IMG/VR virus record: IMGVR_UViG_2851949629_000004
Length of the DNA stretch: 44,448 nucleotides
Strand: one strand, 5' to 3'
DNA from: a virus
Taxonomy: Duplodnaviria; Heunggongvirae; Uroviricota; Caudoviricetes
Positions 24,001-33,000 of the stretch are shown piece after piece. Position 1 is the stretch's first letter. Each line of letters begins with the position of its first letter. A program made the position numbers.

Positions 24001-27000
24001 CAGTTGATTAATATTCAGCACCAGGTTTTTCAACTCATGATCCATATTTCCTCCGGAGAGCTTTAAACATGCATCGTGCGAACAACTTTAAGAAAACGCG
24101 TTCGATGTCGAACAAAAAACACTCAATTCGACATACAAAAAACAAATAATCATTAATAATCAATAAGATGTAAAGATGATGGTGGCCGATAAAAATGCAA
24201 AAACTAGCCTTTTTCCGCGACGCTCCCGCCCCGTGGCAGGCCACCCCACCGGGAGGACCCGTCAGCCTGACAGCCATGACGAACGTCTGATACAGCACCC
24301 TGCATGAATGGCATCGGGATAATCCAGAAAGGAATAGCATCGTACCCACAAGAATCTGTGTGAGTGTCCTGTTTCTTCCACCCCCGCACAGGACTGGCGA
24401 GCATGAGGGACAAACCCGCGAATCATTAGCGCGGTAAAAACCCGGTGTGCATCGTTTTTGATTATTCCCGCACACTCTCGCAGAAGGAGTTCCCCGTCGG
24501 GCTACGGTCTCTGTTAATACGGGAATACGGCGACGATACAGCGCATGATGTGTCAGGCTTGAATACCTTTATCCGTTAAAAGGGATATCAGTTAAGTTAT
24601 CCCGTGTAGGGTATAAGCCATTATCAAAGCCACTCTGTAGGGAGTGGCTTTTGTAATGGCAATAAAAAGCCCCGCGAATACGAGGCTAAATCCTGGTATT
24701 TGTAATGACTGGCTCTTATCTCAACGCAGCCCCTTACCGCGCGCAAGATGCTCAATATCAAGCATCAGCAATGAGATGTTTAATCTGGATTCACTCCAGA
24801 AGTGATCACCACCCTGTCTACAGAGCCAGATGTGAAGGATGATAAGTAAAATTATCGCTATCATCGAAGGCATTGCGTCCTGATGTATTCCTGAAGCGTT
24901 CTCAGTGCTGTTTGGTCGCTGATGATTCCGTCCCGGATACTGAGAACGTTTCGTCCAGCAACTGGAGATAGTTCGACGGTGGCATCATTGCCCATGCCGG
25001 AGGCGCTGGAGGTTTCGGCTGAGGATGGCACAGGGCATTTTCCTTTGACGAACACCCGACCACCATTATCAAGCTTGCGCCGAAGAGCATCATTTTCAGC
25101 TTTCGCATCAGCTAACTCCTTCGTGTATTTAGCATCGAGTGCATCAGCAGAACGCTGGCGCTGCTGCATGTCAGTAATGGTGGCGGTCGCCTGCTTCAGC
25201 TCACTGACTTTTTTATCTCGCTGTTCTTTGTAGGCGATGGCGTTATCACGGTAATGATTGACCGCCCACGACAGGCAGACGATGATGCAGATAACCAGAG
25301 CGGAGATAATCGCGGTTACTCTGCTCATTGTTGCCCCCACAAACAGACTTCACGCTCAATCTCACGACGAGTCATCAGGCCTTTCCATTGCTTACCGCCA
25401 GCGTATGTCCAGCGACGTAGCTGGTCACATGCGCCTTTGATATCGCCCTGGTTTATTTTGCGAAGAAGCGTCGATGTTCTGAAATTGCCAGCACCCACGT
25501 TGTAGACGAACGAGTAAAGAGCGCCGCGCGTTGTTTCCGGTATATCGACTTTGATGTACGGGTTAATTTGTCTGGCGACCGTGGCAAGGTCTTTATTCAG
25601 GAGGGCTTTGCATTCTGCTTTGGTATACGTTTTACCGAGCATGATGTCTTTTCCGGTGTGTCCGTGACATACAGTCCATACGCCAACGATATCTTTGTAT
25701 GGTATGTAGCTGACACCTTCCAGGCCATCGTCACCACTTGGGCCAGTGATTAACACTGATGCTATAGCAATTGCTCCGCCACCAATAGCAGCAGCAACTG
25801 CTTTTCGTAATGATGGAGGCATTATTCACCTCTCGCAGCCTTGCGCTTATCTTCTTTAATCTTGAAATAAAGGTTTGTCAGGTACGTCAGCAGGCCAAAT
25901 ACCAGGCTACCCAGCACACCTATTGCTGCCCACTGTGAGGGCGTGACTTTATCGAGCAGCTGTAAAAACCAGTAACCGGCACTACCTGCTGAGGTGCCAT
26001 AGGCGACACCCGTTGTTAACTTATCCATGGATTTCATAACCCCACCTCGCAGATGCGGGTGCTGTGTAATGGAAATAAAAAGGCCACCTGCGTGGCCACC
26101 AGATTATTTCCCCACCAGCTCGTTTATCTCTTTCACTGTCTGGTTAAACCGCTCTGACTCAAGCTCAACACCTAAGGCCCGACGCCCCAGCGCCATTGCT
26201 GCTTTTATTGTGGAACCGGATCCCATAAAAAAATCAGCAACCAGATCACCAGGTCGACTACTGGCATTGATTATTTGCCTGAGCATATCCGCCGGTTTCT
26301 CACACGGATGTTTACCCGGGTAGAACTGAACGGGTTTATGCATCCAGACATCGGTATAAGGCACGGAGACTGATACGGAGAAATAGCGCCGGAGAGATTT
26401 AAACTCATCCAGCAATTCAGAATATTTGCGATTCAGTGAATCATAAGATGCCACCAGCTGGTGGTGTGGTTGTTCCAGTTGTTGTTCCTGAAACTTCTCT
26501 GCCGCTATACGGGAAAACAGTGCCTGTAACTTCCGATAGTCAGCCTCATTCGGCAACTGCCACTGACTGGCACCAAACCAGTGGGAAACCATATTTTTCT
26601 TACCTGTGGCTTCGGCAATTTGTTTTGCCGTTATACCCAGTTCGGCACGAGCATCCCTGAAATACGATATCAGCGGTGCCATTATGTGCTGTTTGAGTGC
26701 CCTTTCTTTTGCCGCATAGCCGTCACTTTTGCCGCGATATGGCCCCTGGTAATGTTCAGCAAACAGAACGCGCTCTGTGGCAGGAAAATATGCGCGCAGA
26801 CTTTCTTTATTACACCCATTCCAACGTCCGGACGGCTTCGCCCAGATGATATGGTTAAGCACGTTGAAACGTTCACGCATCATGATCTCAATATCAGATG
26901 CCAGGCGATGCCCACAGAACAGGTAAAGGCTTCCGGCAGGTTTTAACACCCGCCAGAACTGGGCCAGACAGTGGTCCAGCCACTTAAGGTAATCTTCGTC

Positions 27001-30000: not shown

Positions 30001-33000
30001 ATCAATGGCATAGCGCGGTGCCAGATTCGGTAAGCCAACAGCCTCCTGGAGTTTCTGACAGGCACCAAGCACTGAAGAGTTAGACAGGTTTAACTCCCTG
30101 CGCATAAAGTCCAGCAGAATCACGCCAGCCTGCATCTTGTCAGCAGCCTGTCCGGATAATTTTTCCGGTGTGCTGGTTACCATGTCGAAAGTACGGATCA
30201 CCTTCAGATGGAATGACGGGCTGATCCACATTGCATAGGCATACACCAGTTCCTTGCAGACATAAGTTCCCCGTTCATTTCCCCCATGAATCACACTCAC
30301 CGGGTCAACACCCAAATTCTGGGTGTTGGTCAATTCATGAACAAGTTCAACAGTTTGTTGGCTGGAAAGAAACTTTCCTGGCTCCTTGGTTCTGGCATTT
30401 GCACCAGATGCTACTGCTGCGCGATGCAGATCGTTCAGGCTGTAACGCCCATAAACATCACGACGAACTTCAATACCATCAATAACCATCAGATTATTCA
30501 TACTTCGTTTCTCCTCTTAATCAGGCGGCTGCACCCGCCGGTTTCTCATACTTACTGATAGTGATCTCGACCTTCCCTTTCGGGATAACCGGTCCCCACT
30601 CCACCAGCATTCTTTTCACCTGTCTGTCGTCTTCCCACACACCCGCGTGGGTCAGGGCGTCAAACAGCGCCTTGTTATAGTTGTCCAGATCGCGGATCCG
30701 GTTATCCGGAGGAAACAACACGATCTCCACTGAAGCAGGTGCCGACGTTGGTTTCGGCAGACGACGTAACTGCTCAACTATTGCTGCGCACGCCGCGCTC
30801 TGAAATTTTCGCCCCGCCTCGCTTATCAGGCTCTTACCAGCAAATGCCCCTTTGTTGGGGTGTCGCCAGTACGTGTTCACACTGGGCGGGAAAGGAAGGA
30901 TCAACTTCATACTTTCAGGCCCCTCTCATGTAACCAGTGGGCTGCACGCAACCTGGCGTTCTCCTCACCGGCAAGCAGTGCGCGGATGATACCGACCGCC
31001 TCGCTGTCGTCGTCCTTCACTGCGGTATGAAGCGTGATCCCCCGGGCCACGCCACGCTTTATCGTGATGACGCCTTTTTTCTCCAGTGCGCGAAGATGCT
31101 CCACCGCTGCATTCACTGAACGGTATCCCAGCATGGTTGCCACCTCCTGATTGGTTGGCGGAAAGCCACGCTCTTGCTGGTAAGAAATCAGCATATCCAG
31201 CACCTGCTGCTGGCATTGAGTTAACGTCGTCATGCCGCCATCTCCCTGACCAGTTTTTCCGCCTGCTGGCGAACCTGCGCCAGAAACGCCTCACCACATG
31301 CCTCAAGTTCATCGCGCCCGATGTAGCTGATTGCCGGTCCCTTCCAGGTCTTATCGAAAACAGCAATAGCACCAGCGAAGAAAGCGCCTGTCGGCACCTG
31401 CTTCTCATCCTTCGGGATAAACCAGGCAGGCAGTTCAAAACCAATACGCCCGCGAATAAAAGCAATATGGTCCGCATCTTCCGGCCACCACACTTCGCTG
31501 GTGGCAGCTTTGATCAGGAAAACATAGCGCCCACCCTTATCACGCATGGCACTGGCATGTTTCATGATGTAACGCATGCCGGTGATGTATTGCCCCTCAT
31601 GCTGACTGGCGCGGCTGTATGGGGGATTACCAAAGGCAGCCCCTTTAAGCTCCGCAAGACGTTCTGACCAGTCATGCGCCAGCGCGTTGTCTTCCGCCGT
31701 GTAATACGCAGCACATTTGGCGTTATCACCGTCAGTGAACAGATCCAGAACAAACGGGCCAAACAGGGTGTTAATTCCCCAGAAAATGTTGTCCGGCGTG
31801 CGCCACTGATCACCCACTTCCTTCAGTTCATGGGCTGGTTTGTTCCGCAGTTCCACCAGCTCCTGGCAATATTTATTACTCATTAAGCCCCCACGTAATT
31901 CCCTGACAGATACCACTCATCACCCGATACAGCGCGCTTGCTGCTTTTCCGTAAACACTGCTCACGACGCGCCAGAAAATTGTTTCGTTCTGGCTGGGAG
32001 TGGCTTTCACGGAATGCCGCCATCCACACCGTTGCAGCACGACGGTATAAGCCCCTGGACTCCAGTTCTTCCGCCTGGCGGGTCAGGCACAAAATCACCC
32101 GGGGATCGTTAGTGCCGACATAGAAATTGCGCACAGGTCTGGTTTCACGAACTGGTTGTGGTTCCGGCTCCTGCGCTCTCTCAGTCAGGCGTGGGAAATG
32201 TCTGCGTGTATCTCCTTCACAACGGTAAGCCACACGCCCACTCTGACGTAACTTGCTTGCTGACTGCAGAACGCGCTGCCGTGAGTAACCTGCAAAAGCA
32301 TCCGCAATGTCTCCGGAAGTACACCCCGGATGGGCTTCAATGAATTTCTGAACGTCATTCAAAAGACTCATGATCACCCCCTGAATCCTGCCGGGATCTG
32401 GCTGTAGTCCACGTTGTCGTAACTGGCTTTGAAGTACGGGTCCTCGCGTCTGGCTGCAGATACCGCAGGAACTTCCCAGGATTCTTCGAAATGACGATCC
32501 GGACCAAAGAACGTGACAGCCTGTTTCACAAATTGTGTGCCGCTGTTACCCATCGCAGATACCCAGCCCGCGTAGCGTTTCACACCTTCCAGCATGGTTT
32601 CGGGGTTTACCCCCTCATTCAAACGGGCTTTCCAGGCTTTGAAGGCTGCAGATTTTGAATTGCCACCAGCACGTTTGGGATATGCCAGCCATGCCTGCTC
32701 AAACTCCGGAGAGTATTCCGGTCGGTTTGAACGAACTCGCACGGACTCATCAACTGATGCACCAACAGCTATTGGTTCATTGACTGATTCTTTGACTGGT
32801 TCAAAAGAGTGACTGGTTCTGGGTGAATCTCCTGCACTACCCCCTGGTGCAACTCCTGCACTACCTGGTGAATTTGCTGCACCAGATAGTGAATTATTTG
32901 CACTACCCCCTAGTGAATCTCCTGCACCATCCAGATGAAGGAGATAGATATTACTTGAGTTACCTTTTTCACCTTTCCGGGTGACTTTTTTTACCAGCCC

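What the first reader, a model, noticed from the sequence alone, without database searches (positions are those of the whole stretch)
26104..31883. Two unrelated orphan DNA methyltransferases in one prophage
A beta-class DPPY enzyme sits in the late region (26104..27156) and a Dam-like NPPY enzyme in the early-right operon (31230..31883). No endonuclease-sized partner ORF is adjacent to either. Differently timed methylation could protect phage DNA from host restriction or affect lysogen gene regulation.
Basis: partly seen in the sequence, partly recalled or inferred. Interest (0 to 1): 0.35.

Follow-up and report, generated by a model that had tools for sequence, protein, structure and literature searches.

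The report
Two known phage methyltransferases, plus RNA leader
The two DNA methyltransferase genes are real but are a long-known, very common pair in E. coli/Shigella prophages (one is a close relative of the non-specific enzyme M.EcoGII); the only apparently new thing at the locus is a conserved folded RNA leader in front of that gene.

Summary
Observation confirmed. ORF 26104-27156(-) is a beta-class PF01555 enzyme (DPPY aa 35, FxGxG aa 310); ORF 31230-31883(-) is a PF05869/TIGR01712 phage Dam-family enzyme (NPPY). No restriction partner exists in the window. Both are already known: they are 98% and 99% identical to orf48 and dam of phage SfV (2002) and occur in 23% and 39% of complete E. 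coli genomes. It lies between Q/pR'-tR' and the holin, so it is inferred to be made only late after induction and to methylate outgoing phage DNA against restriction, as reviews already describe. The Dam-family enzyme lies in the early-right operon; GATC specificity is inferred. The two genes assort independently among phages. Unexpected by-product: a 150-nt non-coding leader (27156-27306, -) directly upstream of the M.EcoGII-type gene is more conserved than the coding DNA, has no Rfam match, is found upstream of every homologue tested down to 53% identity, and shows strong covariation (29 of 33 pairs). It is a candidate cis-regulator of this toxic gene.

The parts
26104..27156 (-). M.EcoGII-family beta-class N6-adenine methyltransferase, 350 aa
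   Evidence: PF01555 E 2.4e-42; DPPY aa 35, FxGxG aa 310; 81% identical to M.EcoGII and 89% to Anc291; 98% to SfV orf48; intact, with mostly synonymous differences between copies
31230..31883 (-). Phage Dam-family (PF05869/TIGR01712) N6-adenine methyltransferase, 217 aa (alternative GTG start at 31916)
   Evidence: NPPY aa 86; 99% identical to SfV dam; 31% to VT2-Sakai orf32, same Pfam family
27156..27306 (-). Conserved structured 5' leader of the beta-class gene: three-way junction plus two hairpins, ending at the ATG
   Evidence: 91% and 85% column identity across genera; no Rfam match; covariance model gives one hit per locus in 23 of 23 loci; 29 of 33 pairs with compensatory changes, 91.6% paired against 26-44% when slid
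27307..27534 (-). Small winged-helix ORF (75 aa from the first ATG; probably 67 aa from the ATG at 27510, which has an AGGGA Shine-Dalgarno-like sequence)
   Evidence: phrog_331, no Pfam hit; AlphaFold model pLDDT 83.8 with winged-helix topology; only generic wH matches in PDB; upstream of the methyltransferase in 19 of 28 genome loci
27629..27651 (-). tR'-like intrinsic terminator (GCCGCTGAGCGGT + T7)
   Evidence: sequence read; equivalent terminators are annotated in SfV, Ayreon, N15 and phiKO2
27688..27715 (-). pR'-like promoter candidate TTTACA-16-TATGCT
   Evidence: consensus scan only; position relative to Q and the terminator
26072..26097 (-). Terminator-like hairpin plus T-run between the methyltransferase stop and the holin start
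   Evidence: the same feature is annotated in SfV, Ayreon, N15 and phiKO2
28312..28692 (-). Antiterminator Q (82-type)
   Evidence: PF06530 E 2.1e-51
25822..26037 (-). Holin, first lysis gene downstream of the methyltransferase cassette
   Evidence: annotated 'holin protein S' in PhiR40_1 at the equivalent position
28695..29690 (-). DUF968/HNHc_6 ORF (ydfU type), considered and rejected as a restriction partner
   Evidence: PF06147 E 3.5e-81; no PADLOC hit; the same gene lies next to Q in K-12 Qin, which has no methyltransferase
30907..31233 (-). LexA DNA-binding-domain-only ORF (108 aa); its start overlaps the Dam stop (ATGA)
   Evidence: PF01726 E 2.6e-19, matches only residues 1-91 of the 203-position LexA model

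Best explanation
The window is a lambdoid E. coli/Shigella-type prophage carrying two independent, well-known orphan adenine methyltransferase modules. (1) Early module: a PF05869 phage Dam-family enzyme, packed with overlapping stop/start codons in the early-right operon (PerC-like, Dam, LexA-DBD, RusA, KilA-N, DUF968, Q). It is inferred to be made while phage DNA replicates and to methylate GATC. (2) Late module: an M.EcoGII-family beta-class enzyme that most likely methylates adenine in any sequence context. It lies downstream of a pR'-like promoter and tR'-like terminator and upstream of the holin. It should therefore be transcribed only when Q lets RNA polymerase read through, which is late after induction. 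It would then partly m6A-modify concatemeric phage DNA before packaging, so progeny genomes resist Type I, II and III restriction enzymes that adenine methylation blocks. In the lysogen, termination keeps this toxic enzyme off. An additional control layer is likely: a conserved structured 150-nt mRNA leader abuts the start codon, and the gene has no obvious Shine-Dalgarno sequence. Shown here: family membership, motif integrity, gene order, terminator and promoter sequence features, absence of a nuclease partner, prevalence, and conservation and covariation of the leader. Inferred: enzyme specificities, timing, anti-restriction benefit, and any regulatory role of the leader.
For: Families and motifs. 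Identity to M.EcoGII (81%) and to the active ancestor Anc291 (89%), with the TRD 77% identical. Non-specificity is reported for M.EcoGII/M.EcoGI (PMC5778455), for Anc291 and SUPREM (PMC11551740), and for the distant homologues ARM81ld_p56 (53% identical to the window protein) and Serratia OS31_p25 (PMC7556043), so characterised non-specific members span the family around the window protein. The nearest site-specific relative, M.PflMI, is only about 27% identical to M.EcoGII (PMC11551740). Silence in lysogens and slower growth when expressed: PMC5778455, PMC4659465, PMC6602927; the 'Trojan Horse' model is in PMC12707154. Anatomy. The same promoter/terminator/methyltransferase/terminator/holin layout is annotated in SfV, Ayreon, N15 and phiKO2 and seen in Salmonella, Citrobacter, Hafnia, Morganella and Aeromonas phages. 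Purifying selection: 21 synonymous against 7 replacement codon differences versus SfV for the beta-class gene, and 14 against 3 for dam. No partner nuclease. Dam: 99% identical to SfV dam, with the upstream region carrying SfV's annotated -35/-10 98% conserved.
Against: No activity, expression or methylation data exist for this element; everything functional is transferred from homologues. M.EcoGII-modified plasmid (80% m6A) transforms non-restricting E. coli 4-5 orders of magnitude worse (PMC5778455), so heavy methylation would harm the phage and only partial methylation can be beneficial. m6A-dependent Type IV enzymes exist (PMC11037411, title and abstract only), so the mark can be a liability. 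E. coli hosts already have Dam, so the benefit of a phage GATC enzyme is unclear, and the characterised family member M.EcoVT2Dam is only 31% identical. The experimental basis for SfV Dam rests on my memory of the 2002 abstract, as the paper could not be retrieved. The promoter call is a weak consensus match (9 of 12). The prophage carries an IS66 insertion and may be defective.
Confidence: 0.8

Rival explanations
1. One or both methyltransferases belong to a restriction-modification system whose nuclease is nearby but unrecognised, for example the DUF968/HNH-motif ORF 28695-29690.
For: The DUF968 ORF has a weak HNHc_6 match (E 4.4e-6), phrog_96 is labelled 'HNH endonuclease', and it lies between the two genes.
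Against: It is about 1.5 kb from either gene with other genes in between. It has no PADLOC hit. The same gene sits next to Q in K-12 Qin, which has no methyltransferase, and in Stx2c and Salmonella prophages whichever early methyltransferase is present. A non-specific methyltransferase cannot be the cognate partner of a site-specific nuclease. No other nuclease-like ORF was found in the window.
Confidence: 0.03
2. The beta-class enzyme is an ordinary sequence-specific Type II orphan methyltransferase with a defined motif.
For: It has a normal-sized TRD, and PADLOC and NCBIfam label it generically as a Type II or adenine-specific methyltransferase. The TRD differs from M.EcoGII at 23% of positions.
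Against: Experimentally non-specific relatives lie closer (81%, 89%) and much farther (53%) than any change that would be expected to create specificity. The nearest site-specific enzyme is about 27% identical to M.EcoGII.
Confidence: 0.05
3. The relevant substrate of the late enzyme is RNA (host or phage transcripts, or rRNA), not DNA.
For: M.EcoGII methylates RNA and DNA:RNA hybrids (PMC5778455). A different prophage 'DNA' methyltransferase in STEC turned out to methylate 16S rRNA together with a small partner (PMC10810198). A small ORF precedes the gene here.
Against: RNA activity of M.EcoGII is about 100-fold lower than its DNA activity (V0 0.12 against 11.12; PMC11551740 Table S3). The STEC enzyme is an MT-A70-type protein, a different family. 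Neither window protein matches any Pfam family other than PF01555 or PF05869.
Confidence: 0.05
4. The Dam-family enzyme serves phage physiology (full GATC methylation of rapidly replicating DNA for packaging, replication, avoidance of MutH nicking, or the lysis-lysogeny decision) and not anti-restriction. This is not exclusive of the main explanation.
For: E. coli is already Dam+. P1 needs Dam methylation at pac, and virion DNA of lambda and P22 is under-methylated by host Dam (PMC12707154; PMC8022706). The gene sits in the replication/nin region and is translationally coupled to regulators.
Against: No GATC cluster or other distinctive GATC distribution was seen. GATC observed/expected is 0.69, similar to other palindromes. 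The gene is absent from many otherwise similar phages, so it is dispensable.
Confidence: 0.35

Closest known systems
M.EcoGII / M.EcoGI (E. coli O104:H4 C227-11 prophage, non-specific N6-adenine methyltransferase; Murray et al. 2018, PMC5778455)
   Same: Beta-class PF01555, 349-350 aa, DPPY...FxGxG, 81% identical over the full length, prophage-borne. The copy in Stx2c phages is 87.6% identical to M.EcoGII and carries the same upstream cassette.
   Different: 19% sequence divergence (TRD 77% identical). No activity data for this allele. The M.EcoGII sequence used was machine-read from a PDF table and may contain a few OCR errors.
Phage SfV orf48 and orf41 (dam) (Allison et al. 2002, J Bacteriol 184:1974)
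   Same: 98% and 99% protein identity, and the same gene order including the terminators. Essentially the same module.
   Different: SfV has a different Q type and lacks the plus-strand lipoprotein-like ORF between Q and pR'.
M.EcoVT2Dam / HP1 Dam family (PF05869, TIGR01712)
   Same: Same Pfam/NCBIfam family, a small enzyme without a separate TRD, NPPY motif, located in the early-right (nin) region of a lambdoid phage.
   Different: Only 31% identical to VT2-Sakai orf32. 217 aa against 175 aa. Different neighbours (PerC-like and LexA-DBD instead of NinB and NinE).
Mu com-mom, and the Com-linked non-specific methyltransferases Hin1523/Hia5 of Mu-like prophages (Drozdz et al. 2012, PMC3299994)
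   Same: A late-expressed, host-toxic, broad-spectrum adenine-modifying enzyme that protects outgoing phage DNA. It is preceded by a small regulator gene and an mRNA structure at the translation start. The Aeromonas homologue of the window enzyme has a Com-like gene overlapping its start.
   Different: The small ORF here is a winged helix, not a zinc finger, and it is absent in 9 of 28 loci. The leader is a 150-nt multi-helix RNA, not a single hairpin. The enzymes are unrelated to Mom, and no similarity to Hin1523 was tested.
ARM81ld_p56 (Aeromonas phage phiARM81ld) and Serratia phage OS31_p25
   Same: Homologues (53% identical to the window protein) reported as non-specific or extremely relaxed adenine methyltransferases, located immediately upstream of the holin.
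   Different: Linear plasmid-prophage or other phage backgrounds. The leader is detected only weakly (21 bits) and lies upstream of the Com-like gene.

Membership tests
M.EcoGII family (non-specific beta-class N6-adenine methyltransferase) | PF01555 catalytic domain with beta-class order: DPPY (motif IV) N-terminal, FxGxG (motif I) C-terminal, TRD in between | tested here: met
M.EcoGII family (non-specific beta-class N6-adenine methyltransferase) | Full-length sequence similarity to M.EcoGII, including the TRD, far above that to site-specific relatives (about 27%) | tested here: met
   81% overall, TRD 77%; 89% to Anc291
M.EcoGII family (non-specific beta-class N6-adenine methyltransferase) | Methylates adenine in any sequence context | not testable with these tools
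   Inferred from characterised relatives at 81%, 89%, 70% (SUPREM) and 53% identity
M.EcoGII family (non-specific beta-class N6-adenine methyltransferase) | Prophage-borne and silent in the lysogen | tested here: inconclusive
   The prophage context and a terminator upstream are shown; expression was not measurable
Phage N-6-adenine methyltransferase (PF05869 / TIGR01712; HP1 Dam, VT2 Dam) | Scores above the curated cut-offs of both models | tested here: met
   155.7 bits against 28.1; 255.3 bits against 97.05
Phage N-6-adenine methyltransferase (PF05869 / TIGR01712; HP1 Dam, VT2 Dam) | NPPY catalytic motif after a motif-I-like segment; small size with no separate TRD | tested here: met
   DLFTD aa 47, NPPY aa 86, 217 aa
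Phage N-6-adenine methyltransferase (PF05869 / TIGR01712; HP1 Dam, VT2 Dam) | GATC specificity | not testable with these tools
   99% identical to SfV dam, which I recall was shown to be a Dam methylase (paper not retrievable); only 31% identical to M.EcoVT2Dam
Type II restriction-modification system | A cognate restriction endonuclease gene adjacent to the methyltransferase | tested here: not met
   Neighbours are holin, wH ORF, PerC-like and LexA-DBD; there are no nuclease or PADLOC hits; DUF968 was rejected
MT-A70-type prophage rRNA methyltransferase with PNB-2 partner (M.EcoPA8orf6770P / M.EcoGV) | MT-A70-type catalytic domain | tested here: not met
   Only PF01555 and PF05869 are hit; no further methyltransferase was found in the early-left arm
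Any Rfam 15 RNA family (for the 150-nt leader) | Covariance-model match at the gathering score or at E <= 1 | tested here: not met
Mu com-mom type translational control | Small zinc-finger activator gene directly upstream, with an mRNA structure occluding the start site | tested here: inconclusive
   The small upstream ORF is a winged helix, not a zinc finger, and is facultative. A structured leader ends about 6 nt before the ATG. A Com-like gene is present only in the Aeromonas homologue.

The most novel reading that the evidence does not exclude
M.EcoGII-family methyltransferase genes carry a previously undescribed, about 150-nt structured RNA leader (terminator hairpin, three-way junction, two further hairpins ending at the start codon). 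It is conserved from Escherichia to Morganella, N15-like phages, Vibrio and Aeromonas. It could act as a cis-regulator (a riboswitch-like, protein-binding or autoregulatory element, possibly working with the facultative upstream winged-helix protein) that gates translation of this toxic non-specific enzyme, so that phage DNA is only partly methylated late in infection.
Probability: 0.5. Interest if true: 0.6.

Novelty: already known. Interest (0 to 1): 0.25.

Why it matters
The finding as given does not matter much. The pair was published with phage SfV in 2002. The beta-class enzyme belongs to the M.EcoGII family, which is sold as a reagent and described in reviews as 'Trojan Horse' protective methylation, and both genes are among the commonest prophage genes in E. 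coli. Two points are useful. First, annotation pipelines should label the 350-aa gene as M.EcoGII-like and non-specific, and should stop calling the PF05869 gene 'phosphoadenosine phosphosulfate reductase'. Second, how a phage safely deploys an enzyme that can methylate nearly every adenine is unresolved: fully modified DNA is 10^4 to 10^5-fold less able to establish in E. coli. The conserved structured leader found here, together with the facultative winged-helix ORF, gives that question a concrete, testable handle. It may also help people who struggle to express M.EcoGII-type enzymes.

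Tried and rejected
1. Hidden restriction partner: Pfam, NCBIfam and PADLOC on all neighbours and on the early-left arm were negative. DUF968/HNH was rejected because it sits next to Q in K-12 Qin, which has no methyltransferase.
2. A third, MT-A70-type rRNA methyltransferase as in STEC phage PA8: none is present.
3. Transfer of GATC specificity from M.EcoVT2Dam: weakened, since identity is only 31%.
4. Retrieval of the SfV genome paper failed twice. M.EcoGII paper supplements are not held.
5. PDB sequence search for the Dam-family protein found no solved relative. The beta-class protein matches only distant enzymes such as M.RsrI, M.MboIIA and CcrM.
6. tRNA genes downstream of Q, as in Stx phages: none.
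7. GATC distribution as a clue to Dam function: unremarkable, observed/expected 0.69.
8. The two genes as an obligate pair: rejected. Of 48 phage records, 25 have both, 6 only the beta-class gene and 17 only the Dam gene. Megablast undercounts, because AP012536.1 scored as 'Dam only' but has an 81%-identical beta-class gene by tblastn.
9. The 150-nt spacer as hidden coding sequence: rejected because of single-base indels.
10. The spacer as a known sRNA (AgvB, AsxR, STnc100, Esr41, which all have Rfam families): no match.
11. The winged-helix ORF as an obligatory partner of the leader or the methyltransferase: rejected, as it is undetectable in 9 of 28 loci, several of which carry unrelated ORFs in its place.
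12. Single-sequence structure model of the wH ORF: too poor to use (pLDDT 61). The fold search on the alignment-based model gave only generic wH matches, none at E <= 0.001.
13. The search for related loci on viral contigs returned only 99-100% identical copies, which were no use for a diversity test.

Full report
OBSERVATION. Both ORFs are present at the stated coordinates on the minus strand. ORF 26104-27156 (350 aa) matches PF01555 N6_N4_Mtase (E 2.4e-42). It has DPPY at residue 35 and DFFMGSG at 308-314, which is the beta-class permutation. ORF 31230-31883 (217 aa; an in-frame GTG at 31916 would add 11 residues) matches PF05869 (E 1.1e-45) and the NCBIfam equivalog TIGR01712 'phage N-6-adenine-methyltransferase' (255 bits against a cut-off of 97). 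It has NPPY at residue 86, preceded by a motif-I-like DLFTD. The two proteins have no detectable pairwise similarity, so 'unrelated' is fair at family level.

CONTEXT. Read in the direction of transcription (high to low coordinates), the gene order is as follows. A replication protein (32374-33192) comes first, then a PerC-like ORF, the Dam-family gene, a LexA DNA-binding-domain-only ORF, RusA, KilA-N, DUF968/HNHc_6 and Q (PF06530). Next come a plus-strand lipoprotein-like ORF, a small ORF, the beta-class methyltransferase, and then holin, lysozyme and Rz. The rest of the window holds lambda-like head and tail genes, a CII-like regulator and an S24-peptidase repressor, an IS66-family insertion and an integrase. 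It is therefore a lambdoid prophage.

NO RESTRICTION PARTNER. None of the neighbours or the early-left ORFs matches a restriction endonuclease or any PADLOC defence protein. The only nuclease-like candidate is the DUF968/HNH-motif ORF at 28695-29690. It is about 1.5 kb from each methyltransferase. It is a standard lambdoid gene that sits next to Q in E. coli K-12 Qin, a prophage with no methyltransferase. It also occurs in Stx2c and Salmonella prophages whichever early methyltransferase is present.

IDENTITY OF THE BETA-CLASS ENZYME. The 6.6-kb module is 97-99% identical to phages PhiR40_1, mEp460, cdtI and SfV. The protein is 98% identical to SfV orf48. The gene occurs in 1264 of 5426 complete E. 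coli genomes and in at least 600 viral contigs.

I compared the protein with the M.EcoGII sequence printed in Supplementary Table S1 of PMC11551740 (machine-read). It is 81% identical over the full length. It is 89% identical to Anc291, a reconstructed ancestor that was expressed and found active on DNA and RNA. The target-recognition region (residues 160-237) is 77% identical to M.EcoGII.

M.EcoGII methylates adenine in any context. It is not expressed in its native lysogen and slows growth when expressed (PMC5778455). Close homologues are listed as 'nonspecific' and transcriptionally inactive in ST131 and O111 methylome studies. Much more distant homologues are also reported to lack specificity or to have extremely relaxed specificity: ARM81ld_p56, which is 53% identical to the window protein, and Serratia OS31_p25 (PMC7556043). 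The nearest site-specific enzyme, M.PflMI, is about 27% identical to M.EcoGII. Non-specificity of the window enzyme is therefore a strong inference, though it was not tested here.

IDENTITY OF THE DAM-FAMILY ENZYME. It is 99% identical to SfV dam. The gene is in 2119 of 5426 E. coli genomes. The characterised M.EcoVT2Dam is the 175-aa orf32 of VT2-Sakai, in the nin region. It belongs to the same Pfam family but is only 31% identical. GATC specificity therefore rests mainly on the SfV work. As I recall the 2002 abstract, it states that SfV 'encodes multiple DNA methylases' and that experiments confirmed orf-41 as a Dam methylase. I could not retrieve that paper, so this is marked as memory. The upstream region in which SfV annotates -35 and -10 hexamers for dam is 98% conserved in the window. 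The gene's start and stop codons overlap those of its neighbours (TAATG and ATGA), which indicates a tightly coupled operon.

ARE THE TWO GENES A SYSTEM? A concatenated probe matched 48 phage records. Of these, 25 hold both genes, 6 hold only the beta-class gene and 17 hold only the Dam-family gene. This undercounts diverged copies: AP012536.1 scores as 'Dam only' by megablast but has an 81%-identical beta-class gene by tblastn. SfIV lacks the methylase that SfII and SfV carry in the replication module. In a Salmonella prophage the slot upstream of RusA holds a C5-cytosine methylase instead. Citrobacter phiNP has yet another methylase upstream of Q. So 'one early plus one late methyltransferase' recurs, but the parts are interchangeable mosaic modules and not a co-adapted pair. 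Both genes are intact in all copies compared. Synonymous differences dominate (21 against 7 and 14 against 3 versus SfV), which is consistent with purifying selection.

HOW IT MOST LIKELY WORKS. On the gene strand, a promoter-like TTTACA-16-TATGCT (27715-27688) is followed about 35 nt later by the hairpin GCCGCTGAGCGGT plus seven T (27651-27629). A second hairpin plus T-run (26097-26072) separates the methyltransferase stop from the holin start. The same layout is annotated independently in several phages. SfV and Ayreon show terminator, small ORF, methylase, terminator, holin. N15 and phiKO2 show late promoter, terminator, methylase, terminator, holin.

By analogy with lambda pR'-tR' and Q, which is established knowledge, transcripts should stop at the first terminator in the lysogen and read through only when Q is made. 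This explains the reported silence of M.EcoGI and M.EcoGII in lysogens. The enzyme would then act on replicated phage DNA shortly before packaging. This is the 'Trojan Horse' protective methylation described in the 2025 EcoSal Plus review (PMC12707154).

Against a simple picture, plasmid DNA with 80% m6A transforms non-restricting E. coli 10^4 to 10^5-fold less well. Methylation in vivo must therefore be limited, and m6A-dependent restriction enzymes exist. The Q-to-lysis interval is a known cargo slot. It holds cspB/cspF in Qin and stx2 in Stx phages. In Stx2c phages the methyltransferase cassette lies directly upstream of stx2A/B, behind a different Q type.

BEYOND THE FINDING: A CONSERVED STRUCTURED LEADER. 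A small ORF (27307-27510/27534) precedes the beta-class gene. With a 26-sequence alignment it models as a winged helix (pLDDT 83.8). Only generic wH matches were found in the PDB, and some homologues carry PF17782 or are named TrmB-family.

Between this ORF and the methyltransferase start lies a spacer of exactly 150 nt, in E. coli and in Salmonella alike. It is more conserved than the flanking coding DNA. Mean column identity is 91% over Escherichia, Shigella, Citrobacter, Salmonella and Erwinia, whereas the methyltransferase gene is only 77% identical at nucleotide level to phiNP. Single-base indels exclude a coding frame.

A pattern scan of one-genome-per-species contigs found 28 loci in about a dozen Enterobacterales genera. 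A methyltransferase homologue follows the element in 27 of them, and in 26 its start codon falls directly at the element's end (in L031 the match starts only at residue 53 further downstream). The last locus is cut at its edge. The wH ORF was detectable upstream in 19, and several other loci carry unrelated ORFs in its place.

That set was ascertained through the leader itself, so I also tested homologues found by protein similarity alone. A profile HMM hit Klebsiella (E 1e-50), Morganella (9e-25) and Hafnia (5.5e-18). A covariance model gave exactly one hit in each of 23 loci, on the sense strand and abutting or just upstream of the gene. These included PY54, phiKO2 and 48ST307 (41-43 bits), Vibrio ST2-1pr, N15, YDC107_1 and an Enterobacter phage (26-28 bits), and Aeromonas phiARM81ld (21 bits). 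There were no hits elsewhere in the window, in VT2-Sakai or in Qin.

The predicted structure is a three-way junction followed by two hairpins, the last ending about 6 nt before the ATG. On the sequence-based alignment, 98% of cells pair, against 26-43% when partners are slid. Five pairs have compensatory changes, and 0 of 500 shuffles reached that count. On the model-fitted, more divergent alignment, 91.6% pair against 26-44% slid, and 29 of 33 pairs have compensatory changes. The covariation score is 0.433 against 0.04-0.08 slid, with 0 of 500 shuffles reaching it. The caveat is that this alignment leans towards the model. Frequent G-U pairs make the structure specific to the sense strand.

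There is no Rfam 15 match in the window or in diverged copies. The named prophage sRNAs AgvB, AsxR, STnc100 and Esr41 are Rfam families and did not hit. The M.EcoGII papers I read do not mention flanking elements.

Immediately 5' of the conserved core, every locus has a short hairpin of variable sequence followed by a U-run. In N15 and phiKO2 this is the annotated terminator after the late promoter. The methyltransferase has no obvious Shine-Dalgarno sequence.

The closest functional analogy is Mu com-mom: a late, toxic, broad-spectrum DNA-modifying enzyme controlled at translation by a small upstream-encoded protein and an mRNA structure (PMC3299994). In line with this, the Aeromonas homologue has a Com-like gene overlapping its start. 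What the leader actually does is unknown.

VERDICT. The finding itself is already known and ordinary. The structured leader is a separate, apparently undescribed feature that deserves follow-up.

Noticed in passing
window 27156-27306 (-): A 150-nt non-coding leader directly upstream of the M.EcoGII-type gene. It is more conserved than the coding DNA, has no Rfam match, shows strong covariation, and is found upstream of every homologue tested down to 53% protein identity.
   Followed up: yes
window 27307-27534 (-): A small winged-helix ORF (phrog_331, no Pfam hit) that usually, but not always, precedes the leader and methyltransferase. A junction probe covers >=80% in 903 E. coli genomes, against 1157 genomes with the methyltransferase.
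   Followed up: partly
window 30907-31233 (-): A 108-aa protein consisting only of a LexA DNA-binding domain (no S24 peptidase domain). Its ATG overlaps the Dam stop (ATGA). It could be a non-cleavable LexA mimic, and it is annotated next to the Dam gene in all the E. coli genome hits shown.
   Followed up: no
window 27781-28227 (+): An opposite-strand 148-aa ORF with a lipoprotein signal (LSATIISGC), inserted between Q and the pR'-like promoter. It matches phrog_3152 (unknown function). It is present in PhiR40_1 but not in SfV.
   Followed up: no
window 33706-33793 (-) and 33818-33894 (-): Rfam hits above gathering score to C4 antisense RNA (82.8 bits) and isrK (63.7 bits), inside or next to the Phage_ASH ORF 33418-34254. 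This looks like a P1/P4-type antisense immunity element in a lambdoid prophage.
   Followed up: no
window 39171-41599 (-): An IS66-family element (537-aa transposase plus two accessory ORFs) inserted in the early-left arm, so the prophage may be defective.
   Followed up: no
window 1073-1271 (-): Rfam IS009 RNA (223 bits) near the tail-fibre end of the prophage.
   Followed up: no
window 31230-31883; RefSeq records NC_003444, NC_009514 and others: RefSeq phage records label this PF05869 Dam gene 'phosphoadenosine phosphosulfate reductase'. The label traces to phrog_33262, a fusion family in which the protein matches only positions 283-492 of 495, so it is an annotation artefact.
   Followed up: partly
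L005 (Stx2c phage LC727876) 2835-5877: In Stx2c phages the wH ORF, leader and M.EcoGII-type gene (87.6% identical to M.EcoGII) lie directly upstream of stx2A/stx2B. The methyltransferase would therefore be co-transcribed with Shiga toxin from the late promoter.
   Followed up: partly
L009 (Salmonella) 1-346; L006 (Citrobacter phiNP) 5847-6026: Other prophages with the same late methyltransferase cassette carry a different early methyltransferase: a PF00145 C5-cytosine methylase upstream of RusA in Salmonella, and a 'putative methylase' upstream of Q in phiNP.
   Followed up: partly
L123 (phage N15, AF064539) 1501-2589: N15 gp52 is annotated from locus position 1735, but homology to the 350-aa enzyme starts at 1501 and the leader ends just before that. 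The deposited start codon is probably about 78 codons too far downstream.
   Followed up: partly
L008 (Erwinia sp. P7711) 4001-5008: A decayed prophage remnant next to T6SS Hcp/Ntox44 genes still keeps the wH ORF, the leader (120 bits) and a truncated methyltransferase (aa 1-219).
   Followed up: partly
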